52,451 nt of DNA, from positions 1 to 52,451 of the forward strand of contig JAFSGU010000059.1 of assembly GCA_017440665.1 (NCBI GenBank), in the 5' to 3' direction. The notes below the pieces were generated by a model. The model saw only the letters and a list, made by a program, of their open reading frames with translations. It searched no databases and was not told the origin of the DNA. Below, piece by piece: positions 1 to 52,076 of this stretch. Made by a program: the position numbers and the translations under genes. This DNA is from Clostridia bacterium. GTDB taxonomy: Bacteria; Bacillota; Clostridia; Oscillospirales; CAG-272. How positions within the stretch are numbered: the first letter of the stretch is position 1; the number at the start of each line of letters is the position of its first letter.

Positions 1-155
1 ATGGCAGGTATCAGCTCCATGTCGGGATAACCGCCGTTTGCCTCCCAGCGCGAAATTGCCTGAGGGCTGACTCCAAGAGCATTGGCCAAATCCTCTTGTT
101 TTCTGCCATCGCGCTGTCGCAGTTGCTTTATCTTTTCACCTATCTTAATATTCAT
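1..155 (-). CDS. XRE-family helix-turn-helix transcriptional regulator (5' part; runs off the window edge)
   Basis: Not in the ORF track. Manual translation MNIKIGEKIKQLRQRDGRKQEDLANALGVSPQAISRWEANGGYPDMELIPA is a classic HTH_3 pattern; GGAGG RBS upstream. Confidence 0.9.
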   Translation of the reverse strand, partial: MNIKIGEKIKQLRQRDGRKQEDLANALGVSPQAISRWEANGGYPDMELIPA

Positions 156-194
156 ACTCTGACCTCCAGTTATTGATATCACCGGTGTGATTAT

Positions 195-223
195 ATTTTA
201 TCATATAAGGGTGCAATAGTCAA
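195..223 (-). promoter_or_regulatory. sigma-A promoter for the XRE gene
   Basis: TTGACT-17bp-TAAAAT with TG extension on the minus strand. Confidence 0.6.
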
Positions 224-372
224 TTATCAATTCGTTGTTTAGCAATCAAGTATTACTTGTTTTTTTGAAATAAAAAAGACATGCTCAAGACGGAACATGT
301 CTTTTCAAATGTACCTGCTTTATCGCAGGTACGCCAAAGGGTGTTTTTTTGTTTCAGCAGGGATTACGGGGC

Positions 373-541
373 AATGATGTTTGCCTTTGGCAAATGATGT
401 CGCTATGCAAATGATGTCGCTTGGGCTAATGATGTCGGCTTCGCCTAATGGGTTAGGGGCAAACATCGCATCATTGCGGAACGAAGTGGAGAAGCATCAT
501 TATGCGAAGCATAACATCATGTCGCGAAGCGATGCATCATT
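373..541. repeat. Structured repeat element: 4x AATGATGT, then 4x inverted (A/G)CATCAT(T/G), with mini-hairpin spacers
   Basis: AATGATGT at 373, 393, 410, 428; inverted copies at 468, 494, 514, 534. Spacers include TTGCC-ttt-GGCAA, GGC-TTC-GCC, ATGC-GAA-GCAT, TCGC-GAA-GCGA. Confidence 0.85.
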
Positions 542-568
542 GAAAGTTTCTGTATTTTGTGGTATAAT
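540..568 (+). promoter_or_regulatory. sigma-A promoter; its -35 overlaps the end of the repeat element
   Basis: TTGAAA(540-545)-17bp-TATAAT(563-568) with TG extension. Confidence 0.7.
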
Positions 569-591
569 AAATTTGAATAGGAGTGAGATTT

Positions 592-1092
592 ATGTTATCC
601 GGATTGGTTGGAAAGAAATTTAATTGTATCAGCCGTGCGCTTGATATGCTTTGTCTGTTCTTGGGTGAGGATTTTACTTTCGTAGGTACTCGCGGACGGA
701 AGATTCATGTTGCGGAGTACTCGATTCATTTCCAAACCCAATGGCGTTTTAGAGATGATAAGGATATTCTTTTGGCATCCAGAGATGTCTATAAGCCTTA
801 TTGTGAAAATGTACCCGAAGATTGGGAATACGATTTGGTTGGCAGATCGGATGAATTGAGTAGTGTTTTTGATGTGCGGGCAAAAGAACTGATGGCAAAA
901 ATGCAAGGAACGATCGTTACAGATGTTCACCTTTCCGCTGTAAACGATGTAACCATTACATTTTCTAATGGTATCATATTTGAACAGTTCATGCCTGCCT
1001 CGCAAAAAAAAGAAGAATGGCGACTGATTGATTATATAAATGATACACAGATCATATGCTATGACGAGGACGGTAGTATTTCGCACGAATAG
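592..1092 (+). CDS. hypothetical protein
   Basis: ORF 583..1092; AGGAG RBS favours ATG at 592; has its own promoter and a downstream hairpin. Confidence 0.8.
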   Translation: MLSGLVGKKFNCISRALDMLCLFLGEDFTFVGTRGRKIHVAEYSIHFQTQWRFRDDKDILLASRDVYKPYCENVPEDWEYDLVGRSDELSSVFDVRAKELMAKMQGTIVTDVHLSAVNDVTITFSNGIIFEQFMPASQKKEEWRLIDYINDTQIICYDEDGSISHE

Positions 1093-1187
1093 ACGGAAAC
1101 TTGTGTGTCATTTTGCGATTGTTTCTTTTTCAAATACAGATCTGTTTACAAATAAGGGGACGTGGCTCTAAAGCCCCATGATAAACG

Positions 1188-1223
1188 CAAACACCGTTTC
1201 GGCGTAATCCGAAACGGTGTTTG
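1188..1223. terminator. probable bidirectional terminator between convergent genes
   Basis: 15-bp perfect stem CAAACACCGTTTCGG / CCGAAACGGTGTTTG. Confidence 0.7.
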
Positions 1224-1316
1224 TTATGTTTTGAGCAGATTATACGTATCATGTGTTTCAGATCGTGTCTTAATATTTATCACGAAGAAACTCAAAAAGC
1301 ATTTCCCAAAGCTTGA

Positions 1317-1604
1317 TCATGGAAATGACAGCAGTACGGCGCAAAATATTTTGCCAATAAATACCTGTAGTGTTGAGGATAGTTTGTCCGAATATTTTAT
1401 TTCCAAAAATACAAGTAAAACTATTCCCGCAAGAGCCAGTATTCCTGCGGCACAGCAAAAGGACATGAGATAGGGATAATACACGAATCCCGCGAAGATG
1501 TCAAGCGGTAAGGTATAAATAACGCACTGCAGAAGCAGACTTAGCAAAATAGCGTAAAGCAGGGTCATAAGACAATGAATGATGATTTTAGACGTTTTTC
1601 TCAT
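1317..1604 (-). CDS. small multi-pass membrane protein; probably frameshifted near its 3' end (true end about 1270)
   Basis: Three hydrophobic segments; AGGAG RBS. An amphipathic tail MIKLWEMLFEFLRDKY continues in an adjacent frame. Confidence 0.65.
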   Translation of the reverse strand: MRKTSKIIIHCLMTLLYAILLSLLLQCVIYTLPLDIFAGFVYYPYLMSFCCAAGILALAGIVLLVFLEIKYSDKLSSTLQVFIGKIFCAVLLSFP

Positions 1605-2868: not shown

Positions 2869-3792
2869 TTAAAGCGTATGTGCGTCTCTCGTGAGAAGCT
2901 TTTCTCCGTCGAAGACGAGGATACCGATGCCCTCACCGGGCTCGCCGCCTTCAAGCATATACTTCTTGAAAGCGCGTCTCATACGTGTGTCCTCGGGATA
3001 GTCCTCCACGGGAAGTTTATTATCGGCTGCAGCACCGAAAACTCTCCAGTCGTCACCGAATTCTTCCTCGGGTCGGCGGCGGATAATATCCCAGTCCTCC
3101 ATAAAGTCACGTGCTCCGCCTCCCTCGGGGAATACGTTTCTGTAATCGGGGAAGAGAAGCCATGAACCGCAGTCACAGTACAGCTTGTCAAGTCCCGTTT
3201 CCTTGGTATAGAAGTCATACGCCATCTTGTAGGACTTGAGACGAGACTCATAATCGAAGGGCTCGCCGCTTGAAGGAATGTGGATACCCTTGATGGGAGT
3301 TCCGTTTGTGATCTTGATGTCGCCAAGCTCGTAGGGATTCATCATTTCAAACTCTCCGTCCTCGTACTCGAAGCGTCCGAACTTGATGATACGGCAGGTG
3401 AAGAAAAGACCGTACCAGCCTGCAACGAAGGTGCCCCATACGCCCTTTACGTTCTTGCACTCGATGACCTTGCATCTCAGGTCTGAGAAGGTATCGTAAA
3501 ATACCTCTTCTGTGACGCCTCTCTTGTCGTACTTAACTTTTGCAGACTCAGTGGCGATAAGAAGAAGGAGCATCCAGCAGGAGTAATAGTTCTCGCCTGT
3601 CTTATCGGCGAATGCGTGGAGCTTTGCGCGGGTAACGTCCGTGTCGATCTCCTTTACGTAGTTGGCAATGATAGCGTCGAACTCTTCCTCGTAACCTGCC
3701 TTTACTCTGTCAAAGAGCTCTGTGAAGTATACCTTAGCCTCATCGGGGAAGGATATCTTGTCCATTAAGTTTTTTGCAAAATCAAATTTCAT
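2869..3792 (-). CDS. DUF5596 / GNAT-like acyltransferase-domain protein (paralog 3)
   Basis: RGV.EEVFYDTFSDL, KFGRFEY, IHIPSSGEP and CGSWLL motifs of the NAT_N/GNAT_C family. Confidence 0.85.
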   Translation of the reverse strand: MKFDFAKNLMDKISFPDEAKVYFTELFDRVKAGYEEEFDAIIANYVKEIDTDVTRAKLHAFADKTGENYYSCWMLLLLIATESAKVKYDKRGVTEEVFYDTFSDLRCKVIECKNVKGVWGTFVAGWYGLFFTCRIIKFGRFEYEDGEFEMMNPYELGDIKITNGTPIKGIHIPSSGEPFDYESRLKSYKMAYDFYTKETGLDKLYCDCGSWLLFPDYRNVFPEGGGARDFMEDWDIIRRRPEEEFGDDWRVFGAAADNKLPVEDYPEDTRMRRAFKKYMLEGGEPGEGIGILVFDGEKLLTRDAHTL

Positions 3793-43419: not shown

Positions 43420-46257
43420 ATGAACGCGAAAAAACTTTTATCACTAATTCTTGCGGCGCTGATGCTTTTAAGCGTAGGTGCACTTGGGATCACTGCGGCA
43501 GACGACGCTCTTCCTTTTACGGACGTGGCGGAGGGCGCATGGTACTATGATTCTGTGAAATACGTTTACGCAAACGGGCTTATGAACGGAACGGGAAACG
43601 GAAATACGTTTTCTCCCGCTGTAGGCCTCACCCGCGGTATGGTAGTTACGGTACTCTACCGTATGTCAGGCTCCCCTGAGGCGGAATATGACGATTTTGC
43701 GTATTCCGACGTTCCCGACGGTGAGTTTTATACTCTCCCCGTAATGTGGGCGAAGGAGGCAGGTGTCGTTACCTCTACAGGTATGGATGACGTAGGCTTT
43801 GAGCTTTTCTCCCCCCTGCGTACCATCACCCGTCAGGAACTTGCTACCATGTTCGTCCGTTACGCGGCGTACGCAAGCATAGACACGGATAAAAAGGCGG
43901 ATATCTCCTCCTTCAAGGACGTGGCTCAGGTAGCGGATTGGGCATCTGATGCTATGGCGTGGTGTAATGAGGTCGGACTTATCAAGGGTACGGGAAACGG
44001 CGACATGCTCTCTCCGTTGATGACTGCAACCAGAGATCAGTTTGCTACCATCATTCACCGCTTCAAGACGACTGCTTTTGAGTATCTTTACAAGTACAAT
44101 GCTCCGAAGCTCATATCTCAGTTTACAGAGAAGGAATATTCTCCCGTTGAGGATGCGGATATCTACGTAGCAGTGGACGGTAATGACAGTAACCCCGGTA
44201 CAAAGGACAAGCCTCTTGCAACCTTCGAGGGCGCAGTTAAGAAGGTTCGTGAGCTTAAGAAGGATTCCTCAAGAGACGGTATTACAGTAGCCTTCAAGGC
44301 AGGAAACTATGGTATGCTTGATCTGGAGCTTACTGCTGAGGACTCCGGTAGCGAAAAATGCCCCATTACATATTGCGCTTACGGCGACGGCGAGGTAGTT
44401 TTCTCTAACGGATTTGAAATTTTCCTTGATGAGTTCAAGCCCATTGAGGACGGTGACAGATATCTCTTTGACGATAAGTCTGAAAATAAAATTTACAAGG
44501 TAGATCTTAAGGACAAGTCCTACGAGGGTACGCTTACACACGTTCTTCCTCTTTACGGTGACTACTACTTTGGAAACGGAACCTGCAACTACAAGGGCGA
44601 CGTTACCTTCATAAGCGGTCTTTATGACAGCGAGCAGAGCCTTGAGCTTGCACGCTTCCCCAATAAGAAGTCTGCTGACGGCGAGGACCAGTATATGGAC
44701 CTTGGCAAGGAGGTTCACCATCCCTTTGACGTTGTAGCTGAACGCATTTTTGCGAACAGACTTGCTACATATCACGAGTATAACAATATTCAGTTTATCG
44801 GTATGTTTGCCGCTGAGTATGAGTCTAACTTTGCTGCTATCGAAAGCTACAACAAGGAGACAAATACCATCACGTTCCAGAACTGGATATCCAACGGTAT
44901 CAGAGCGAATCCGGACGGATTCTTGCAGAACATTTCTGAAGAACTCGACTTTGAGGGCGAATATTGGTTAGACGTTGAAAACGAGGTGCTTTACGTTTAT
45001 GATCCTACGTCTGACGTTTATACTCTCTCTACCGCAGGAACACTTCTCAAGGTAACAGATGCGGAATACATCAGCTTCATCGGCCTTGATTTCAAGCATT
45101 CCATGGATGAGGGAATTATCGTAAACGGTAACAACATCACCATTTCCGACGCAGAGATCTTCGGTATCCACGGCTCATACGTTAGAGATACTGATTTCGG
45201 TACCTACGCGGTGATCCTTAACGGAAACAATAATGCGCTGAAGAACTCAACTCTCAGCCACCTTGGCGGCGGCGGTGTTACCATCAGTGGCGGTGATCCG
45301 GACTATCTTATTCCTTCAAACAGCGTGATCGATAACAACCTTATCACTCAGTTTGGTCAGGTATTCCAGGCATGGACTCCCGGTGTTCGTATTTTTGACT
45401 GCGTGGGAGCAACCATTTCCCACAACGAGATCAGCCATACTCCTCACCAGGCGATCCATTTCGACCGTGCGTATGAATACATTGACGGCGAGGTTCGTGC
45501 TATCGATAACGTAATAGAATATAACTATATCCACGACACTATTACTCACTACAGAGATGCAGGATCCATCTATCACGGTGAGTGTCAGACCAACAGAGGA
45601 AACATCATCCGTTACAACCTTATCAGTAAGGTTGGTGTCGGCGGATGGGGACTGTACCTTGACGACGGTATCAGCGGACAGACCGTGTATGGAAACATAT
45701 TCCACAATACGGGTGTTTGCGGTATCATGGGCGGTGCAGGACGCGATAATTTCGTGTATGACAATTATTTTATCCAGGAGGGAAATGTTCCTGTGGATAT
45801 GAGTCCGATGTCTATAGGCGCAAAGTATGCGGATATGCTGGCGGATGAGGGAGTTGACAGACTGTGGAGTTCAACATGGCCGGGAACCTACGGACAGACT
45901 ATGGCTGATATTCCCACCGATCCTGCGGCACTTAAGATCTGGCAGGAAAGATGGCCGGAGCTGTTTGAATGTCTTGATGAGAGAGACGAGATCACGCCTG
46001 ACCGTATTACAGACCGTACTCTTATGGTAAATTCTGCCGGCAGTATTTATAAGAACAATTTCGCTTACGGTGTCACAAGAATGAAGGATTTCAGCTTTGA
46101 TCCCTCTGCATTATGGTTCAACGAGGTTGAAAATAACGTTCTCTATACTGACGAGACCGATCCGCAGATATTTGTAAATCCTGCGATTGGAGACTATTCC
46201 GTTAAGCCCGGAATGGGATTTGCCGACAATCATTTCGCAGAAATCGGAAGGTATTGA
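43420..46257 (+). CDS. secreted SLH-domain + right-handed beta-helix protein (GH141-like), paralog 1
   Basis: Signal peptide; 3 SLH repeats (FTDV...W, TR motifs); YVAVDGND.NPGT, LARFPN, DAGSIY, LYLDDG; C-terminal IGRY. Confidence 0.88.
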   Translation: MNAKKLLSLILAALMLLSVGALGITAADDALPFTDVAEGAWYYDSVKYVYANGLMNGTGNGNTFSPAVGLTRGMVVTVLYRMSGSPEAEYDDFAYSDVPDGEFYTLPVMWAKEAGVVTSTGMDDVGFELFSPLRTITRQELATMFVRYAAYASIDTDKKADISSFKDVAQVADWASDAMAWCNEVGLIKGTGNGDMLSPLMTATRDQFATIIHRFKTTAFEYLYKYNAPKLISQFTEKEYSPVEDADIYVAVDGNDSNPGTKDKPLATFEGAVKKVRELKKDSSRDGITVAFKAGNYGMLDLELTAEDSGSEKCPITYCAYGDGEVVFSNGFEIFLDEFKPIEDGDRYLFDDKSENKIYKVDLKDKSYEGTLTHVLPLYGDYYFGNGTCNYKGDVTFISGLYDSEQSLELARFPNKKSADGEDQYMDLGKEVHHPFDVVAERIFANRLATYHEYNNIQFIGMFAAEYESNFAAIESYNKETNTITFQNWISNGIRANPDGFLQNISEELDFEGEYWLDVENEVLYVYDPTSDVYTLSTAGTLLKVTDAEYISFIGLDFKHSMDEGIIVNGNNITISDAEIFGIHGSYVRDTDFGTYAVILNGNNNALKNSTLSHLGGGGVTISGGDPDYLIPSNSVIDNNLITQFGQVFQAWTPGVRIFDCVGATISHNEISHTPHQAIHFDRAYEYIDGEVRAIDNVIEYNYIHDTITHYRDAGSIYHGECQTNRGNIIRYNLISKVGVGGWGLYLDDGISGQTVYGNIFHNTGVCGIMGGAGRDNFVYDNYFIQEGNVPVDMSPMSIGAKYADMLADEGVDRLWSSTWPGTYGQTMADIPTDPAALKIWQERWPELFECLDERDEITPDRITDRTLMVNSAGSIYKNNFAYGVTRMKDFSFDPSALWFNEVENNVLYTDETDPQIFVNPAIGDYSVKPGMGFADNHFAEIGRY

Positions 46258-46278
46258 TTTGTTCCTTGGAACAAATCA

Positions 46279-46443
46279 ATGAATTGCCCGTGCGGGCATG
46301 AATTGGCAGGGACCGTGAATTGCACCTGCAGTGCATGAATTGTCTTCGACATATATAGGACGGGCAATTCAAATCATAAAAGCATTAGCTTTCAATTCAT
46401 GAATTTGAAAGGTTCAATTCATGACGGTTTACCGTCAATTCAT
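46279..46443. repeat. Structured repeat element: 4x (A/G)TGAATTG, then 4x inverted CAATTCAT (first degenerate), with mini-hairpin spacers
   Basis: Direct copies at 46279, 46298, 46315, 46335; inverted at ~46365-46377 (CAATTC+AAATCAT), 46393, 46415, 46436. Spacers TGCCCG-tg-CGGGCA, TGCAC..GTGCA, TGTC-TTC-GACA, AAAGC-atta-GCTTT, TGACGGT-tt-ACCGTCA. Confidence 0.85.
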
Positions 46444-46487
46444 TTCATATATCAATAAATTAATATACCAACCAAGGAGACAAACAA

Positions 46488-49262
46488 ATGAATGCAAAAA
46501 GAATTTTGGCATTTGTCCTTTCATGCATCATGCTGCTTGGCACGTGCGTGATGGGAATTGGTGCCGCTGAAGAAAAGCTGCCCTTTACCGACGTTCCCGA
46601 GAATGAATGGTTTTACGGAGCAGTAGAGTACGTTTATGCAAACGGACTTATGAACGGTACGGGTAACGGAAGCGTATTCTCACCCAAAATGAATCTGACA
46701 CGAGGAATGGTAGTAACCGTTCTTTACAGAAATGACTCATCTCCCGCCGGCAAATATCCAAATGTTTTTGCTGACGTTGCAGAGGGTACGTACTACGCTA
46801 CAGCCGCGGCATGGGCGTACAAGAACGCGGTCGTAACCGGTACGGGCTTTGACGAATGGGGCGATCCTCTTTTCTCCCCCGACCGCAATATCACCCGTCA
46901 GGAGCTTGCGGCAATGTTTGCAAGATACGCGGCGTACCGTCACGTTGATACGACCAAGAACACAGCGGAGCTTGACAGCTTCCCCGACAGCGGAAAGGTT
47001 GCGTCCTGGGCTGAAAAGGAATTCAAGTGGTCGTCAGGTACGGGTATCATCACGGGTAAGGCGAACGGAGGCGTGACGACTCTCGCTCCCGAGGATCTTG
47101 CTACACGTGCTGAATTTGCAACGATGATCCAGCGTTATAACGTAAAGGATGACGCACGTGAATTTTCATATCTTCACGCGTACGAGACCCCTGTACTGAA
47201 ATCTCAGTATACCGAAAAGGAATACCTCCCCGTAACGGATGCTGACGTCTACGTTTCCGTTGACGGCAGTGATAAGAACGACGGTTCATTTGAAAAGCCC
47301 CTTGCTACGTTTGAGGCAGCTGTTGAAAAGGTGCGCGAGATCAAGGCTACAAAGAAAACGGGCGGGATCGTGGTTGCCTTTATGGCAGGCGAATACGAGG
47401 CTCCTGTAGACCTTGTACTCACCTCTGCAGATGCAGGTACTGCTGAATGTCCCATCTCCTACGTGAAGTACGGCGACGGTGAGGTAATATTCAATGCGGG
47501 CATGAGCTTTTCATCAGAGGATTTCACTGCGTTAACCGACGCTGAGCGTGAGATGTTCCCCGCAGAGGCACAGAACAAGATCAAAAAGATAGATCTTGGA
47601 AAGTATGGGCTTGATGCATCAAAGCTTACTGAAGACAATGCGGTGTTTGCAGGCGAGGAGAGAATGGATCTTGCCCGTTGGCCGAACAAAACCATTAAGG
47701 GGAATGACGATTTCGTTGACAAGCATTATGTTGCTTCAGTCAACATAGAGGATAAAAGCTTGGTTCTCAGAGACAGTGTGGCTGACAGGCTTAACAAATA
47801 CCATAACATTGATGATATGTATATGCTGGGATATTACAAGTACGACTGGTCTTATTCACAGGGAAAGATCATAGCATATGATGCTGAGACAGGTACTATA
47901 AAGCCTACGATCAACGGATACGGTCTCGGAACTTCCAGCGAATTCAATCTTCCTTGCTTCTATTTCTACAACATCCCCGATGAGCTTGACAGAGCTGATG
48001 AGTATTACATCGACCGTAAGACGGGAACACTTTACGTAATGGATCCTAAGGGAACGTACACTTTAGCCAAGACAGGTCAGATGATGACTATGACGGATAC
48101 GGACTACGTAAGCTTTGTTGGTCTCGAGTTCTGCTACGGAACAGGAACGTTTATGTCTGCAACGGAATCTGATCACGTTACATTCGACAGACTTTACGTT
48201 CACAATATGCGCAGTAAGGGTATTTCCATAACCGGTGATAAAGTTACTGTTACCTCTTCCGAATTCTATGACGTAGGTGCAAGAAACGTTGAACTTGTAT
48301 CGGGTGACAGAAATACTCTTACCAAGGGTAACAGCGAGATCGTTAACTGTCTCTTCGACAAGTTTGGATCTGTTGAAAAGACGGGTCAGTCCGCGATCTA
48401 CGTCTGGGGATGCGGTATCCGTATCGCACACAACGAGATATGTAACTCCTCCAATATGGGTATCTACTACAGCGAATACATCCAGGCAAGTAACTATATT
48501 ACCATTGAGTACAACTACATCCACAACGTAGTAACTCAGACTAATGACTCCGGTGCTATCTACGGCGGACGTAACCTTGCAGGTCACGGCTCCGTAGTCA
48601 GATATAATCTGATAAGCAATATCGGTGATGCTGATGAGGGATACAATCCGATCGCAATTTATCTTGATGACTATATGTCCGGTCAGGAAGTGTACGGCAA
48701 TATTATTTTCAGCAGTGCAGGCGGAAACTCCATCTTTATGCACGGAGGACGCGAGAATAAGATACACGATAATATTTTCATCACGTTAAAGGGTAGTGCA
48801 TGGCAGTCTGACGTCAGACTTAACTCAGAGGATCACGAGATAATGGCTGACAGAACTGAAGACTTTACAAAGCCTATCGGAGACCATGAGCATTTAATGA
48901 TCTTGGAGCTTGTTCCCTTCAGAAGCGAGATATGGGCACAGCATTTCCCCACTCTTGCGAAATGCAAGTACGACAAACAAGAACCCATGGCATCCATTAA
49001 GGATGACATAGATTTCATTATCAATTCCTCTTACAATGAGGTGTACGATAACCATTCGTTTACAAGCGATGTTGGACTTAAGAGTGAGTATCTCACTGAA
49101 TTCAGTGACAACGTGCGTAAGCATGCCACGAGAATCGAAGAAAACAAAAAATATACACTTGAAGAAAATCCCTACTTTGTCGATCCTACCCACGGTGACT
49201 ATACCGTAAAGGATGGCGCAGGTATTCTTGACATTCAGTATGAGAAGATCGGTAGATATTGA
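46488..49262 (+). CDS. secreted SLH-domain + right-handed beta-helix protein (GH141-like), paralog 2
   Basis: Same architecture; LARWPN, DSGAIY, IYLDDY, IGRY. Confidence 0.88.
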   Translation: MNAKRILAFVLSCIMLLGTCVMGIGAAEEKLPFTDVPENEWFYGAVEYVYANGLMNGTGNGSVFSPKMNLTRGMVVTVLYRNDSSPAGKYPNVFADVAEGTYYATAAAWAYKNAVVTGTGFDEWGDPLFSPDRNITRQELAAMFARYAAYRHVDTTKNTAELDSFPDSGKVASWAEKEFKWSSGTGIITGKANGGVTTLAPEDLATRAEFATMIQRYNVKDDAREFSYLHAYETPVLKSQYTEKEYLPVTDADVYVSVDGSDKNDGSFEKPLATFEAAVEKVREIKATKKTGGIVVAFMAGEYEAPVDLVLTSADAGTAECPISYVKYGDGEVIFNAGMSFSSEDFTALTDAEREMFPAEAQNKIKKIDLGKYGLDASKLTEDNAVFAGEERMDLARWPNKTIKGNDDFVDKHYVASVNIEDKSLVLRDSVADRLNKYHNIDDMYMLGYYKYDWSYSQGKIIAYDAETGTIKPTINGYGLGTSSEFNLPCFYFYNIPDELDRADEYYIDRKTGTLYVMDPKGTYTLAKTGQMMTMTDTDYVSFVGLEFCYGTGTFMSATESDHVTFDRLYVHNMRSKGISITGDKVTVTSSEFYDVGARNVELVSGDRNTLTKGNSEIVNCLFDKFGSVEKTGQSAIYVWGCGIRIAHNEICNSSNMGIYYSEYIQASNYITIEYNYIHNVVTQTNDSGAIYGGRNLAGHGSVVRYNLISNIGDADEGYNPIAIYLDDYMSGQEVYGNIIFSSAGGNSIFMHGGRENKIHDNIFITLKGSAWQSDVRLNSEDHEIMADRTEDFTKPIGDHEHLMILELVPFRSEIWAQHFPTLAKCKYDKQEPMASIKDDIDFIINSSYNEVYDNHSFTSDVGLKSEYLTEFSDNVRKHATRIEENKKYTLEENPYFVDPTHGDYTVKDGAGILDIQYEKIGRY

Positions 49263-49360: not shown

Positions 49361-49400
49361 GAAGATAGTATCAAAATTCCAAATTACAAGGAGACATAAA

Positions 49401-52076
49401 ATGAACGCAAAAAGATCTTTATCGGCACTTCTTGCCCTTATCATACTTCTCACCACGTGTGTGATGGGTGTGAGTGCGGCTGAAGAAAAGCTGCCCTTTA
49501 CCGACGTTCCCGAGAACGAGTGGTACTACGGCGCGGTAGAGTTCGTGTATGAAAACGGACTTATGAACGGTACGGGTAACGGCTCAACCTTCTCACCCAT
49601 GGCAAAGCTGACAAGAGGTATGGTTGTAACCGTGCTTTACCGCAACAACTACTCTCCCGCTGTTGCTAATGATGAGATATTCGTTGACGTTGCAAAGGGT
49701 CAGTACTACGCAAAGGCGTCCGCATGGGCGTACGAAAACGGTATCGTTACAGGTACGGGCTTTGACGATTGGGGCGAGCCCATCTTCTCTCCCGACCGAA
49801 ACATCACCCGTCAGGAGCTTGCGGCCATCTTCGGCAGATACGCAAGTTTCAAGAACGTTGACGTAGACAAGAATACCGCAGACATTACAAAATTCCCCGA
49901 CAGCGGCAAGGTTGCGTCCTGGGCTGAAAAGGAATTTAAGTGGGCGTCAGGAAACGGCATTATCAACGGTAAGACCTCCGGCGGCGAGAGCTATCTTGCC
50001 CCCACAGATACCGCAACGAGAGCGGAATTTGCTACCATCATTGAGCGTTTCAACAGTGCGGAATTTGAGTACGTGCTCAAATATGCCACACCCGACTACA
50101 ACAGATACCGCGAAAACAAGATGGAGCTTGTAACTGACGCTGACATCTACGTGGCGGTAGACGGTGACGACAGAAACGACGGATCTTTAGAAAAGCCTCT
50201 CGCAAGCTTCGAGGCTGCCCGCGATAAGGTACGCGAGCTGAATGACGGAACGAGAAACGGTATCACCGTTGCCTTCAAGGCAGGCGACTACGGTGCGCTT
50301 AACATAAACTTTACTGAAGAGGATGCAGGTACTGCAGACTGTCCCATCACATACTGCGCTTACGGTGACGGCAAGGTTACCTTCAACAACGGTATGGCTA
50401 TCGCCTCAGGTGAGTTCAAGCCTCTTGATGAGGCTGATAAGAAGCTCTTCGGAGAATCTTACGTGAACGATATCAAGAAGGTATACATCGGCGACAGACT
50501 CGGTGATAACGTAGATATCAGCAGTGTTTATCTCTTCTCCGCAGATGGCTTCTGCAATTTCGCAAGGTTCCCCAACAAGGGTACTGTCGACACCTTCCTC
50601 AGCAACTTCTTTGAGAAGGCAGGCGACTCCTCCATCAAGGTGCTTGTAAGCAAGGAAAAGTTTGATAACTACCATACCTTCGATGGTGTACAGATCGTTG
50701 GTCACTTCATGTACGAGTGGGCAACTGCTAACGCCGGTGTTGTCTCCTACGATAAGGAAATAGGTGTGTTCCAGCTTTCCGGTACTTCAGGCTACGGAAT
50801 CAGCGAAGACAAGGCAGATATAAAGCTTTACATCAACAACGTTTCCGAGGAGCTTGATTTTGAAAAGGAATTCTGGATTGACAGAAATACAGGAATGCTT
50901 TACGTATACAAGCCTGCAGGAAACTACAGCCTTGCAACTTACGGAACGTTCGTGAATATGCTCCATTCCGATTACGTTACCTTTGAAAACCTTGACTTTA
51001 CCACTACCACAGCGAAGGCAATGCACATCTATGCTGACAACGTAACGCTCAGAAACTGTGACATTTCCTACGTTGCAGGTGACATCATGATCCGCTTTGA
51101 TAACGCAGGTGTTTCAAACTGTGTTGTTGAGGGATGTAACTTCTCTTACCTTGCAGGCAGCGGTATCCGTATCGACGGTACCTCTCCCGAGCTTGTAAAT
51201 GACGGCAACAAGTTTATCAACAACGGCTTTGACAACTACTGTATCGTTTACACCAGCGGTAACGGACTCCATATCAACCATTGTATGGGCACGCTCGTTG
51301 CAAATAACGTATTCTCCAACTCTCCCCGTACAGGTCTTGACGTATACGGATGTATCGATTGTGTAATTGAGTACAACGTATTCGACAACGTAATGACCAA
51401 CTCTGCCGACGGCGGCGCACTTTACTTCGGCGGAACAAGATGGGGCCGTGCCAACATCGTAAGATACAATCTGTTTACCAACATCAAGGTTGGCGCAGGT
51501 ATCTTCACGATTTATCTTGACGACGGCACCTCCGGTCAGATTCTCTACTCCAATATCTTCTACAACTCCGGTGACTATTCCATTATGATCTCCGGCGGAC
51601 GTGATAATCAGCTTTATGACAACATCACTATCGTTGAGGACGGAAACCGCAAGGGATTCTGGACACATGATAAGTATTACAACATGTGGCATGACGGAGA
51701 GCTTGATCCCGGCAGATGGAATGAGATCGCTGACGATTACGTCAGAATGCAGAATGAGAGCGATCCCGTAAAGCTTAACTTCTATAAGACTCGCTTCCCC
51801 GAGGTGTTCACAATGATCCTTACCTTTGAGGATTACAAGGATTCTAACTGCATGATCAACCCCAAGAACTACTACTCAAAGAACTATGTCTTCGGAAGCA
51901 CTCATGTATACCGTCAGAGCGCACTTGACTGCTCTACGATCATCGAGAACAAGGATGATATTTCACTCGATACCAACGATTATTTCGTAAATCCCTCTAT
52001 TGGTGACTACTCCATCAAGGATGGCGCGGACTTTGCAGATAATCACTTCGACAAGATCGGACGTATCGCTCCGTGA
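49401..52076 (+). CDS. secreted SLH-domain + right-handed beta-helix protein (GH141-like), paralog 3
   Basis: ATG 49401 after AAGGAG (same MNAK start as its paralogs); FARFPN, DGGALY, IYLDDG. Confidence 0.88.
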   Translation: MNAKRSLSALLALIILLTTCVMGVSAAEEKLPFTDVPENEWYYGAVEFVYENGLMNGTGNGSTFSPMAKLTRGMVVTVLYRNNYSPAVANDEIFVDVAKGQYYAKASAWAYENGIVTGTGFDDWGEPIFSPDRNITRQELAAIFGRYASFKNVDVDKNTADITKFPDSGKVASWAEKEFKWASGNGIINGKTSGGESYLAPTDTATRAEFATIIERFNSAEFEYVLKYATPDYNRYRENKMELVTDADIYVAVDGDDRNDGSLEKPLASFEAARDKVRELNDGTRNGITVAFKAGDYGALNINFTEEDAGTADCPITYCAYGDGKVTFNNGMAIASGEFKPLDEADKKLFGESYVNDIKKVYIGDRLGDNVDISSVYLFSADGFCNFARFPNKGTVDTFLSNFFEKAGDSSIKVLVSKEKFDNYHTFDGVQIVGHFMYEWATANAGVVSYDKEIGVFQLSGTSGYGISEDKADIKLYINNVSEELDFEKEFWIDRNTGMLYVYKPAGNYSLATYGTFVNMLHSDYVTFENLDFTTTTAKAMHIYADNVTLRNCDISYVAGDIMIRFDNAGVSNCVVEGCNFSYLAGSGIRIDGTSPELVNDGNKFINNGFDNYCIVYTSGNGLHINHCMGTLVANNVFSNSPRTGLDVYGCIDCVIEYNVFDNVMTNSADGGALYFGGTRWGRANIVRYNLFTNIKVGAGIFTIYLDDGTSGQILYSNIFYNSGDYSIMISGGRDNQLYDNITIVEDGNRKGFWTHDKYYNMWHDGELDPGRWNEIADDYVRMQNESDPVKLNFYKTRFPEVFTMILTFEDYKDSNCMINPKNYYSKNYVFGSTHVYRQSALDCSTIIENKDDISLDTNDYFVNPSIGDYSIKDGADFADNHFDKIGRIAP

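What the first reader, a model, noticed from the sequence alone, without database searches (positions are those of the whole stretch)
373..541. ~170-bp 'ladder of four-way junctions' element built on AATGATGT; candidate undescribed structured ssDNA or mobile element
Seen: four direct AATGATGT copies spaced 17-20 bp apart, most followed by a mini-hairpin. Then a short centre ending GGGC plus a partial copy (AAACATC), then four inverted copies separated by mini-hairpins. Left and right spacers are not complementary to each other but mostly self-pair. Pairing the 8-mers would give a long helix interrupted by stacked four-way junctions. Loops are C-GAA-G on the right arm (ACGAAGT, GCGAAGC twice) and TTC or TTC-like on the left arm, so each strand carries GNA triloops on its 3' arm. 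Established: d(GCGAAGC) is an exceptionally stable DNA mini-hairpin, and folded ssDNA sites are substrates for HUH transposases (REP/IS200) and integron integrases (attC). Inference: structure, not sequence, is under selection; the element may be a folded-ssDNA recognition site or a non-autonomous element moved in trans. The same design recurs with another core at 46279-46443.
Basis: partly seen in the sequence, partly recalled or inferred. Interest (0 to 1): 0.85.

Follow-up and report, generated by a model that had tools for sequence, protein, structure and literature searches.

The report
Hairpin-spaced heptamer array, Gut-1 family
The 170-bp element is real and belongs to a large family of interspersed repeats in gut Clostridia, one arm of which is already filed as the orphan "Gut-1 RNA" motif, and these repeats turn out to be tightly linked to small Avd-like four-helix-bundle protein genes sitting just behind tRNA genes.

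Summary
Observation confirmed: window 373-541 has 4 direct AATGATG(T) and 4 inverted CATCAT(T) cores separated by mini-hairpins. The same design occurs at 46279-46443 and about 40 more loci of this 1.57-Mb genome, with none in shuffles. It is not undescribed. Rfam RF01706 (Gut-1, function unknown) models one arm of the TGAAAT-core subfamily. Sister copies score 50-70 bits; the window copy scores 24 (cut-off 50), so it is a core variant.

The "ladder of four-way junctions" is not general: single arms, hybrid arms, 10-unit arrays and arms separated by a gene all exist. Hairpins covary and carry GNA/GNNA loops on one defined strand (113 versus 6).

New result: the arrays go with Avd-like four-helix-bundle genes (PF05635/TIGR02436).
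- Across 151 genomes: both 59, array only 9, gene only 13, neither 70.
- All 3 such genes in this genome, and 21 of 21 close relatives inspected, lie beside an array.
- Protein clades match core types.
- The usual order is tRNA, terminator, array, promoter, gene.
- One orthologous tRNA-Glu site carries different array-gene pairs in two species.

Best reading: cis arrays bound by cognate pentameric proteins; the window copy is an orphan fused to a promoter. Binding and the nucleic-acid form are inferred.

The parts
281..359 (+). Two hairpins upstream of the element. The second (331-344) is followed by a T-run and is terminator-like. The left end of the element follows this T-rich stretch, as in most relatives.
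   Evidence: Sequence; terminator-like site 331-344 plus TTTTTTTGTTT. Relatives show 'ttttttg|AATGATG' junctions.
373..437 (+). Left arm: four AATGATGT cores (373, 393, 410, 428) with spacers that are mini-hairpins or degenerate ones (TTGCC-TTT-GGCAA and others).
   Evidence: aligned with 12 relatives.
436..467 (+). Centre: the mini-hairpin GGC-TTC-GCC, the hairpin CCTAA-TGGG-TTAGG, and GGCAAACATC. The last is conserved in the subfamily and is complementary to GATGTTTGCC at 376-385.
   Evidence: (I6).
468..541 (+). Right arm: four inverted cores (CATCAT at 469, 495, 515, 535). Its spacers are one imperfect hairpin (GCGGAAC-GAA-GTGGAG) and two C-GAA-G hairpins.
   Evidence: Weak Gut-1 match at 489-554 on the - strand: 24.2 bits, E 0.012.
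540..568 (+). Sigma-70-type promoter whose -35 box overlaps the last core: TTGAAA, 17 nt, TGgTATAAT.
   Evidence: 11 of 12 matches, TG before the -10. The same arrangement occurs in G004, C83 and many relatives.
579..1092 (+). Ribosome-binding site AGGAG (579-583) and an ORF of 166 aa (ATG at 592) with no Pfam or NCBIfam family. It is not a four-helix-bundle protein, so this copy of the array-plus-promoter drives a different gene.
46279..46443 (+). Second element of the same family with a TGAATT core (4 + 4). It lies between the stop codon of an 824-aa gene (46257) and the start of an SLH-type surface-protein gene (46489).
   Evidence: TGAATT-core arrays sit beside their own four-helix-bundle clade in other genomes.

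Best explanation
Window 373-541 is an orphan (gene-less) member of the Gut-1 repeat family of Oscillospirales-type gut Clostridia. The AATGATG core marks its subfamily.

The unit of the family is a 7-8-nt core followed by a mini-hairpin of variable sequence capped by a GNA or GNNA loop. About four units make an arm. Two arms in inverted order make the common ~165-bp form.

The arrays are the cis partner of small Avd-like four-helix-bundle proteins (PF05635/TIGR02436), which in solved relatives are pentamers. Each protein clade goes with its own core sequence. The standard module is: tRNA gene, terminator, array, strong promoter, four-helix-bundle gene. This module is exchanged as a cassette.

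I infer that the protein oligomer binds the repeated cores and hairpins when the array is single-stranded. My odds for the bound form are RNA 45%, ssDNA 35%, duplex 20%. I also infer that gene-less copies such as this one are spread or decayed derivatives, analogous to MITEs. This copy keeps the module's promoter and drives an unrelated 166-aa gene.

Shown here: family membership, hairpin covariation, loop strand bias, linkage to the protein gene, and tRNA adjacency. Inferred: direct binding, the nucleic-acid form, and how copies spread.
For: 1. Family. RF01706 matches arms of sister elements in the same genome at 70.1, 58.6 and 50.8 bits (cut-off 50), on opposite strands for the two arms. The window copy scores 24.2 bits. 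Gut-1 matches occur in 68 of 151 genomes of the order.

2. Hairpins. See the covariation figures. Of 202 non-redundant spacer hairpins, 113 have GNA/GNNA loops on the strand where the core reads ..TCAY, and 6 have them on the other strand.

3. Protein link, phyletic. Both 59, Gut-1 only 9, PF05635 only 13, neither 70 of 151 genomes; odds ratio 35, not corrected for kinship. The RAYT control gives an odds ratio of 1.8.

4. Protein link, physical. All 3 PF05635 matches in this genome lie right behind an array plus promoter. A strict detector finds arms in 15 of 30 PF05635 loci, against 2 of 30 Y1_Tnp loci, one of which is the query's own locus. By eye, 21 of 21 genes scoring 100 bits or more to the seed have arrays upstream or flanking.

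5. In L209 and L227 the gene lies between the two arms.

6. In a tree of 91 four-helix-bundle domains the core type clusters with the clade: 19 label changes against a shuffled mean of 48.7, reached in 0 of 200 shuffles.

7. At the orthologous tRNA-Glu plus terminator site, G000 has an ATGAAG array with one clade of the gene. G019 has a GTGATG array with another clade.

8. In 49 of 91 cases a same-strand tRNA or tmRNA ends within 600 bp upstream of the gene; 16 tRNA types and tmRNA are involved.

9. Established knowledge. Avd is a positively charged pentamer. All five of its protomers contact one RNA stem-loop capped by a tetraloop, with flipped-out bases in the crevices between protomers. GNRA or UNCG caps are common in such stem-loops (passages of bioRxiv 10.1101/2023.10.23.563531). 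PDB 2RLD, the closest solved relative (E 1.5e-30), has 5 chains.
Against: - No binding data exist. Linked inheritance of a gene and its neighbouring array would by itself produce the clade-to-core match.
- Most copies are gene-less. G134, G153 and G155 have many TGAAAT arms, but the only PF05635 gene found in each belongs to another clade. A cognate protein is therefore not needed for copies to persist.
- 9 of the 68 Gut-1-positive genomes show no PF05635 match.
- In the standard module the array lies upstream of the promoter, so it is not obviously transcribed. This weakens the RNA reading.
- Stems are almost purely Watson-Crick (4 G-T against 5 A-C odd pairs). That is unusual for an RNA-only structure.
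- Orientation of single arms relative to the downstream gene is not constant (C7 versus C2).
- No target-site duplication or clean empty site was found.
Confidence: 0.6

Rival explanations
1. A stand-alone structured non-coding RNA, which is the Rfam/Weinberg reading of Gut-1. Each arm would be a small RNA of three hairpins acting on its own, and the protein linkage would be incidental.
For: Weinberg et al. 2010 list Gut-1 as an RNA, neither cis-regulatory nor a riboswitch, 'human gut only' (table and one sentence seen). The hairpins covary. Some copies lie inside transcription units: between stop codon and terminator in 7 of 12 intergenic regions of contig C32. AGCTAAAT arms abut a ribosome-binding site and start codon. 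Contigs from RNA libraries hold pieces of the family.
Against: Both strands match the model because the arms come as inverted pairs. Orientation to neighbouring genes varies. Many copies lie between a terminator and a promoter. C-GNA-G triloops dominate, and G-U pairs are nearly absent. The RNA-library contigs do not prove transcription, and their depth tracks DNA copy number. This reading does not explain the protein-clade to core match.
Confidence: 0.15
2. A selfish MITE/REP-like element mobilised by a transposase in trans, for example a REP-associated Y1 (HUH) transposase acting on folded ssDNA. The four-helix-bundle gene would be mere cargo.
For: High copy number. Discrete boundaries recur in BLAST hits at 372/373 to 541/545. 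A 251-bp TGAAAT element is 88-100% identical across at least 8 families of the order. One Y1_Tnp gene (C52:11368-11907) lies 100 bp from an element.
Against: Only the query's own Y1_Tnp locus among 30 clearly has arms; one other hit looks like noise. Y1_Tnp-like genes occur in 32 of 151 genomes and are unlinked to Gut-1 (odds ratio 1.8). Array-rich genomes G021, G026, G027, G031, G036 and G170 show none. No target-site duplication was seen. No match was found in 50,697 phage or 72,556 plasmid records.
Confidence: 0.12
3. A duplex operator array for a conventional transcription factor, such as the neighbouring XRE-family repressor, controlling the adjacent promoter.
For: The last core overlaps the -35 box. 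The cores repeat at roughly two helical turns. An XRE-type gene lies upstream at window 3-182 on the - strand.
Against: Core-to-core spacing varies from 16 to 26 bp and more, so the helical phase is not kept. Spacer hairpins with compensatory changes and strand-biased GNA loops have no role in a duplex site. Copies occur in 3' UTRs and beside terminators with no promoter nearby.
Confidence: 0.06
4. One reading: a folded single strand in which left and right cores pair into a ladder of stacked four-way junctions, recognised by an HUH transposase or an integron-type integrase.
For: Two-armed copies can fold this way. The fold z-scores are -4 to -5. GNA loops suit DNA mini-hairpins (recalled: d(GCGAAGC) is very stable).
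Against: The minimum-energy folds are not ladders. Single arms, 10-unit one-way arrays (C51, C24), hybrids with non-complementary cores (C46: a GCTAAAT arm with an AATTCAT arm; C74:16635: ATGAAG then ATATCA) and arms 0.5 kb apart around a gene all exist. There is no HUH link.
Confidence: 0.05

Closest known systems
Rfam RF01706, Gut-1 RNA motif (Weinberg et al. 2010, Genome Biol 11:R31)
   Same: It has four UGAAAU-type cores separated by three covarying hairpins with 3-5-nt loops. This is exactly one arm of the TGAAAT-core elements of this genome, which score 50.8-70.1 bits.
   Different: The model covers one arm and one core type, and it is oriented on the strand with UUC-type loops. The window copy, with an AATGATG core, scores only 24.2 bits. 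I did not find the inverted two-arm form, the other cores, or the link to four-helix-bundle genes and tRNA flanks in the main text I could read.
23S rRNA intervening sequences (IVS) carrying an S23p ORF, e.g. Coxiella burnetii and Leptospira
   Same: These are small 'selfish' elements next to or within stable-RNA genes. They encode a protein of the same family (PF05635) between terminal inverted repeats (abstract and passages of PMC4990558). The layout resembles L209 and L227 here.
   Different: The IVS lies inside helix 45 of 23S rRNA. It has a plain 28-bp terminal stem and is cut out of the rRNA by RNase III. Here the modules lie behind tRNA or tmRNA terminators, the 'repeats' are arrays of cores plus mini-hairpins, and most copies have no gene.
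Avd of diversity-generating retroelements and its RNA stem-loop
   Same: It is a homologous pentameric four-helix-bundle protein. It binds a stem-loop capped by a tetraloop, using the same residues from different protomers (passages).
   Different: No reverse transcriptase was found in this genome's assembled 55.6% or within 1.4 kb downstream of 21 modules. No template or variable repeats were seen. The target here would be a repeated array, not a single stem-loop.
REP/BIME elements with RAYT transposases; BOX elements of pneumococci (recalled)
   Same: These too are extragenic, modular, palindromic units. They occur singly, in inverted pairs or in clusters, often at operon ends and sometimes inside transcripts.
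   Different: No association with Y1 transposases was found. The units here are far smaller (about 20 nt) and have sequence-variable stems and a conserved single-stranded core.
Integron attC sites
   Same: Both are imperfect palindromes whose structure is more conserved than their sequence. Both lie between small accessory genes.
   Different: I saw no R/L box layout and no integrase. I ran no search for tyrosine recombinases, so membership was not tested.

Membership tests
Rfam RF01706 Gut-1 | Covariance-model score at or above the curated gathering score (50 bits) | tested here: not met
   Window 489-554 (-) scores 24.2 bits, E 0.012. Nothing in the window reaches the gathering score. Sister elements in the same genome score 70.1, 58.6 and 50.8 bits.
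Rfam RF01706 Gut-1 | Architecture: four repeated short cores separated by three covarying hairpins | tested here: met
   The model consensus is shown.
REP/RAYT system | Repeats flank, and co-occur with, a Y1 (HUH) REP-associated transposase | tested here: not met
   Arms clearly present in only 1 of 30 Y1_Tnp loci. The phyletic odds ratio is 1.8.
MITE | Terminal inverted repeats | tested here: met
   The two arms are inverted copies of the same core array.
MITE | Target-site duplication and empty orthologous sites | tested here: inconclusive
   No direct repeats at the ends. The orthologous site in G004 and a contig of run X5 carry a 1+1 form, not an empty site. Other loci lacked conserved synteny.
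MITE | A cognate autonomous element encoding a transposase with the same ends | tested here: not met
   The only gene found between arms is the four-helix-bundle gene (L209, L227), which has no known catalytic domain.
23S rRNA IVS with S23p | Insertion within a 23S rRNA helix, excised by RNase III | tested here: not met
   Copies lie in intergenic DNA, often behind tRNA or tmRNA genes. RNase III cleavage cannot be tested with these tools.
23S rRNA IVS with S23p | A PF05635 ORF enclosed by inverted repeats | tested here: inconclusive
   Met in relatives L209 and L227. Not met for the window copy, whose neighbouring ORF has no family.
Diversity-generating retroelement | Reverse transcriptase plus template and variable repeats next to the Avd gene | tested here: not met
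   No PF00078 match in G000, which is 55.6% complete. No such gene lies downstream of 21 modules.
Integron attC | R''-L''/L'-R' boxes, extrahelical bases, an IntI integrase nearby | not tested
   No search for IntI or for the box motifs was run.

The most novel reading that the evidence does not exclude
Non-DGR Avd-like four-helix-bundle pentamers and their heptamer-plus-hairpin arrays form a previously unrecognised two-part system. It would be a small cassette that homes to the 3' flank of tRNA and tmRNA genes without any recombinase of its own. The protein clade would set which heptamer is read, giving a simple, evolvable protein-to-nucleic-acid recognition code. The hundreds of gene-less arrays, including the orphan Rfam motif Gut-1, would be its dispersed binding sites or non-autonomous copies.
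Probability: 0.3. Interest if true: 0.85.

Novelty: new variant of a known kind. Interest (0 to 1): 0.7.

Why it matters
Gut-1 has been in Rfam since 2010 with no organism, partner or function attached. TIGR02436/PF05635 is a very large family whose only understood member is the DGR protein Avd.

Three points make both problems directly testable. First, Gut-1 is one arm of a much wider family of arrays. Second, these arrays travel with four-helix-bundle genes whose clades match the core sequence. Third, the pair sits behind tRNA genes and is swapped as a cassette. Together these suggest a gel-shift or cryo-EM experiment with defined cognate and non-cognate partners.

If the match reflects recognition, it is a compact way of reading short sequences in folded nucleic acid. 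The repeats also break assemblies and could be mistaken for CRISPR-like arrays, which matters for annotating gut MAGs.

Tried and rejected
**RAYT/HUH idea.** PF01797 gave 4 matches in G000, one beside the C52 element. The wider test failed.

**Empty sites and target duplications.**
- Window 1-1500 against 40 relatives found only G004 with the same flanks, and it carries a 1+1 form.
- For window 45500-47200, G016 has lost synteny. G019 has a different small 2+2 element with a TTATGA/TCATAA core at the same place.
- The C5 and C65 loci had no usable orthologous intergenic region.

**Expression.** One run search and one lay of reads returned only contigs. RNA-library contigs contain pieces of the family, but depth follows DNA copy number. 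No claim of transcription is made.

**Vectors.**
- No match to the window element or to the conserved 251-bp element in the phage collection, and none to the window element in the plasmid collection.
- In IMG/VR, about 6 of the 119 returned stretches are genuine TGAAAT arrays.

**The genome contigs pattern scan** is unspecific. Of the 120 stretches returned, 31 passed my filter (2 spacer hairpins or at least 2 inverted copies); those that are real arrays all come from Clostridia-type MAGs, the rest are simple tandem repeats from other phyla.

**Protein libraries.** PADLOC and PHROGs give no match for two four-helix-bundle proteins.

**Literature.** Searches found no paper linking Gut-1, or arrays of this kind, to PF05635 genes or tRNA flanks. 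Supplements were closed. Additional file 1 of Weinberg 2010, which describes Gut-1, may bear on the two-arm form and on gene context.

**Rows dropped.**
- In some searches, arms on contigs C21, C32, C38, C41, C53 and C75, and at C68:7401, were set aside by eye as noise. The C32 arms (GTTATG core) were dropped from these counts although one search had already shown them to be real. The figure of 40 element loci therefore leaves them out.
- The 60 extra PF05635 loci were taken from the upper part of the list (about 84-99 bits), leaving out some rows, including those already held. They are not a random sample.
- Three weakest rows (score under 60) were left out of the tree.

Full report
**1. The observation**

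Window 373-541 holds four direct AATGATGT cores at 373, 393, 410 and 428. A short centre follows, with a partial copy AAACATC at 461-467. Four inverted cores then follow, with CATCAT at 469, 495, 515 and 535. The right-arm spacers contain ACGAAGT and two GCGAAGC.

The second element, at 46279-46443, has the same plan with a TGAATT core.

A genome-wide scan of the window's own assembly (G000: 1.57 Mb, 88 contigs, 55.6% complete) looked for any 6-mer with at least 3 direct then at least 3 inverted copies. It found 15 loci, 14 of them convincing, and none in five shuffles. The single strands fold better than shuffles, with z between -3.6 and -5.0.

One correction is needed. The left and right spacers are partly complementary to each other (GCTTCGC versus GCGAAGC). 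The minimum-energy folds pair them across the arms rather than forming a clean ladder.

**2. It is a large family, partly described already**

A permissive Rfam scan matched window 489-554 (- strand) to RF01706, the Gut-1 RNA motif. The score was 24.2 bits (E 0.012, cut-off 50). TGAAAT-core elements elsewhere in the genome match the full 77-nt model at 70.1, 58.6 and 50.8 bits, and the two arms match on opposite strands.

The model consensus is four UGAAAU cores separated by three hairpins, which is one arm of these elements. Weinberg et al. 2010 list Gut-1 only as a likely non-coding RNA, 'human gut only'. The details are in a supplement I could not open.

RF01706 matches 68 of 151 sampled genomes of the same order, 51 of them above the cut-off. 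Some genomes have up to the cap of about 29 scored matches. Named relatives from a pattern scan are Oscillospiraceae, Ruminococcus, Faecousia and 'Eubacteriales'/Clostridia MAGs from animal guts. The sequencing runs that hold the window are gut metagenomes, among them bovine and goat.

**3. Anatomy of the family**

G000 holds about 60 arms by a strict detector. On the strand carrying the GNA loops, the cores read CATCATT, ATTTCAC, ATATCAC, AATTCAT, GCTTCAT, AACATCA, ATTTAGC and CATAAC. Most therefore end in TCAY.

The two-armed palindrome is only one of several arrangements:
- single arms (C24:2184, C7:1766, C85:8291);
- one-way arrays of at least 10 units (C51:13-198, C24:341-520);
- hybrids whose arms cannot pair (C46: GCTAAAT then AATTCAT; C74:16635: ATGAAG then ATATCA);
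- arms in the reverse order (C74:26305).

Cross-arm pairing, and hence the 'ladder', cannot be the common functional form.

The spacer hairpins are clearly selected. On 13 AATGATG-type elements from different genomes, 89% of cells pair, against 27-49% when partners are slid. Compensatory changes occur in 11 of 28 pairs. No shuffle out of 500 reaches the observed values.

Loops are strongly strand-biased. Of 202 non-redundant hairpins, 71 have GNA and 42 have GNNA loops on the ..TCAY strand. Six have TNC and none has TNNC loops there. Stems are almost purely Watson-Crick.

**4. Where the elements lie**

All copies are intergenic.
- Many sit between a terminator and a promoter. At the finding, the last core overlaps the -35 box of TTGAAA-17-TGgTATAAT (540-568; 11 of 12 matches).
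- Others lie inside transcription units. In the 13-gene SLH paralog array on C32, 7 of 12 intergenic regions carry a GTTATG/CATAAC element between the stop codon and the terminator, and 5 carry none.
- AGCTAAAT arms abut ribosome-binding sites.

The number of units is labile. The orthologous site in G004, and a contig of an independent DNA run (X5), have a 1+1 form of the finding with the same promoter.

A 251-bp TGAAAT element is 88-100% identical in genomes of at least 8 families. It always lies just behind the terminator of a tRNA or tmRNA gene. This argues for horizontal spread.

**5. The HUH idea fails**

G000 has several Y1_Tnp-like genes, and one is next to an element. However, only that locus among 30 clearly has arms. 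The genes occur in 32 of 151 genomes with no real link to Gut-1 (odds ratio 1.8). Several array-rich genomes show none.

**6. The link to four-helix-bundle genes**

Genes downstream of AATGATG elements in other genomes are often PF05635/TIGR02436 proteins. The tests gave the following.

- **In this genome.** All 3 PF05635 matches in G000 lie directly behind an array and a promoter: C5:24111, C74:25968 and the fragment at C83:464.
- **Across the order.** In 151 genomes the two features co-occur: both 59, Gut-1 only 9, PF05635 only 13, neither 70. Kinship is not corrected for, but the pattern also holds within families.
- **Physical adjacency.** The strict detector finds arms in 15 of 30 PF05635 loci, and they sit right beside the gene. 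By eye, all 21 genes scoring at least 100 bits to the seed have arrays upstream or flanking.
- **Gene between the arms.** In L209 and L227 the gene lies between the left and right arms.
- **Clade matches core.** In a tree of 91 domains, TGATG, TGAAG, GAAAT, TGAATT, TGATAT, TTATAT and GCTAAA arrays each go with their own clade or clades. This needs 19 label changes, against a shuffled mean of 48.7, and 0 of 200 shuffles are as low.
- **tRNA adjacency.** In 49 of 91 cases a same-strand tRNA or tmRNA ends within 600 bp upstream, typically about 260 bp, and many different tRNAs are involved. The order is tRNA, terminator, array, promoter, gene.
- **Cassette swap.** At the orthologous tRNA-Glu locus with the same terminator, G000 carries an ATGAAG array with one clade of the gene. 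G019 carries a GTGATG array with another clade.
- **A second class.** A separate clade of PF05635 genes is preceded not by hairpin-spaced cores but by contiguous heptamer repeats such as GCATAAT, GCAGAAT and TAGTTGC.

**7. How it probably works**

Avd, the one studied member of this protein family, is a positively charged pentamer. In the DGR ribonucleoprotein all five protomers contact one RNA stem-loop capped by a tetraloop, and flipped-out bases sit in the crevices between protomers. GNRA or UNCG caps are common in such stem-loops (passages read). The closest solved relative of the proteins here is PDB 2RLD, deposited with five chains.

I therefore infer that a four-helix-bundle oligomer binds an arm of about four cores. 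The mini-hairpins would bring successive cores close together when the array is single-stranded. A hairpin-spaced array would then resemble the contiguous heptamer repeats of the other clade.

Whether the bound form is RNA, ssDNA or extruded duplex is open:
- Avd's precedent and the copies inside transcripts favour RNA.
- The C-GNA-G triloops, the near absence of wobble pairs, and the position upstream of the promoter favour DNA.

No reverse transcriptase was found in G000 or next to 21 modules. These are not DGRs.

**8. The finding itself**

The window copy has the AATGATG array and the module's promoter, but it drives a 166-aa protein of no known family. Its paralog at C83:221-452 is 89% identical through the promoter and is followed by a 50-aa fragment of a four-helix-bundle gene.

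The simplest history is that the window copy derives from such a module by recombination or gene replacement. It is an orphan.

**9. Caveats**

- Linked inheritance alone could give the clade-to-core match.
- G134, G153 and G155 have many TGAAAT arms, but the only PF05635 gene found in each belongs to another clade.
- Nine Gut-1-positive genomes show no PF05635 match.
- No target duplications or clean empty sites were found.
- All genomes are MAGs.
- The extra loci were chosen from the top of a ranked list.

**10. Verdict**

The feature is real. It is a core variant of a known but unexplained motif family. The ladder-of-junctions and HUH readings are not supported. The link to Avd-like four-helix-bundle genes and to tRNA flanks appears to be new in the literature I could search, and it is directly testable.

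Noticed in passing
G000 contig C32:170-38850 (outside the window); window 46489 onward and 49387-50049 are paralogs: Thirteen tandem paralogs of a ~920-aa SLH-type surface protein lie on one strand. Their intergenic regions come in two forms: with a GTTATG/CATAAC two-armed element before the terminator (7 of 12), or without it (5 of 12).
   Followed up: partly
L142, L214, L171, L152, L222, L219, L230; G000 C74:26480-26530 and C5:33770-33800: The terminator between the tRNA and the array is itself a conserved module. Its inner stem and loop read CTTTTGTC-TACCn-GACAAAAG. Its outer stem varies with compensatory changes.
   Followed up: no
L208, L213, L215, L216, L232, L205, L203 (upstream of the PF05635 genes): A second clade of four-helix-bundle genes is preceded by 4-7 contiguous heptamer repeats (GCATAAT, GCAGAAT, TCGGAAT, TAGTTGC...). 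The repeats start directly after the stop codon of the upstream gene. I could not name the upstream genes because the script failed.
   Followed up: partly
G000 C52:1-330, C11:1-200, C81:1-200, C80:16650-16821, C74:6230-6440, C68:5100-5300: ATGAAGC/GCTTCAT arms are followed by a conserved ~120-nt non-repetitive tail. In C52 the arm-plus-tail unit is repeated in tandem. Many of these lie at contig ends, so the repeats break the assembly.
   Followed up: no
L024:1695-1745 and about 25 other places: The last ~50 nt of the conserved 251-bp element (query positions about 201-251) also occurs on its own in many genomes at 88-100% identity. The family is thus a mosaic of separate modules.
   Followed up: no
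G000 C52:11368-11907, C59:2272-2760, C82:9262-9651, C47:10379-10930, C35:17737, C86:4695, C41:34215, C75:49757: At least eight Y1_Tnp (IS200/RAYT-like) genes of 160-183 aa occur in half a genome. Some are embedded in operons. They are not linked to the arrays.
   Followed up: yes
L297 (G016:C78) 1580-1800 and L298 (G007:C165) 3290-3477: Downstream of the orthologous tRNA-Glu, two relatives carry fragments resembling the T-arm and 3' end of a tRNA (..GGTTCGATTCCC..). G016 also has an array with yet another core (TGGAAT). This flank looks like a hot spot for insertions.
   Followed up: no
Literature: PMC10910872, figure legend: '23S rRNA IVP' is listed among genes linked to CRISPR arrays in a large clustering study. 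Arrays of core plus variable hairpin, like those here, might be picked up as CRISPR-like arrays. This is only a thought and was not checked.
   Followed up: no
Window 3-182 (- strand): The N-terminal part of an XRE-family helix-turn-helix protein runs off the start of the contig. The same gene and terminator arrangement precedes the element in G004.
   Followed up: partly
L069 (G019:C230) 2250-2400: At the site orthologous to window 46279-46443, a relative with 75% identical flanking genes has a small 2+2 element with a different core (TTATGA/TCATAA). The core and the hairpins turn over while the design stays.
   Followed up: partly
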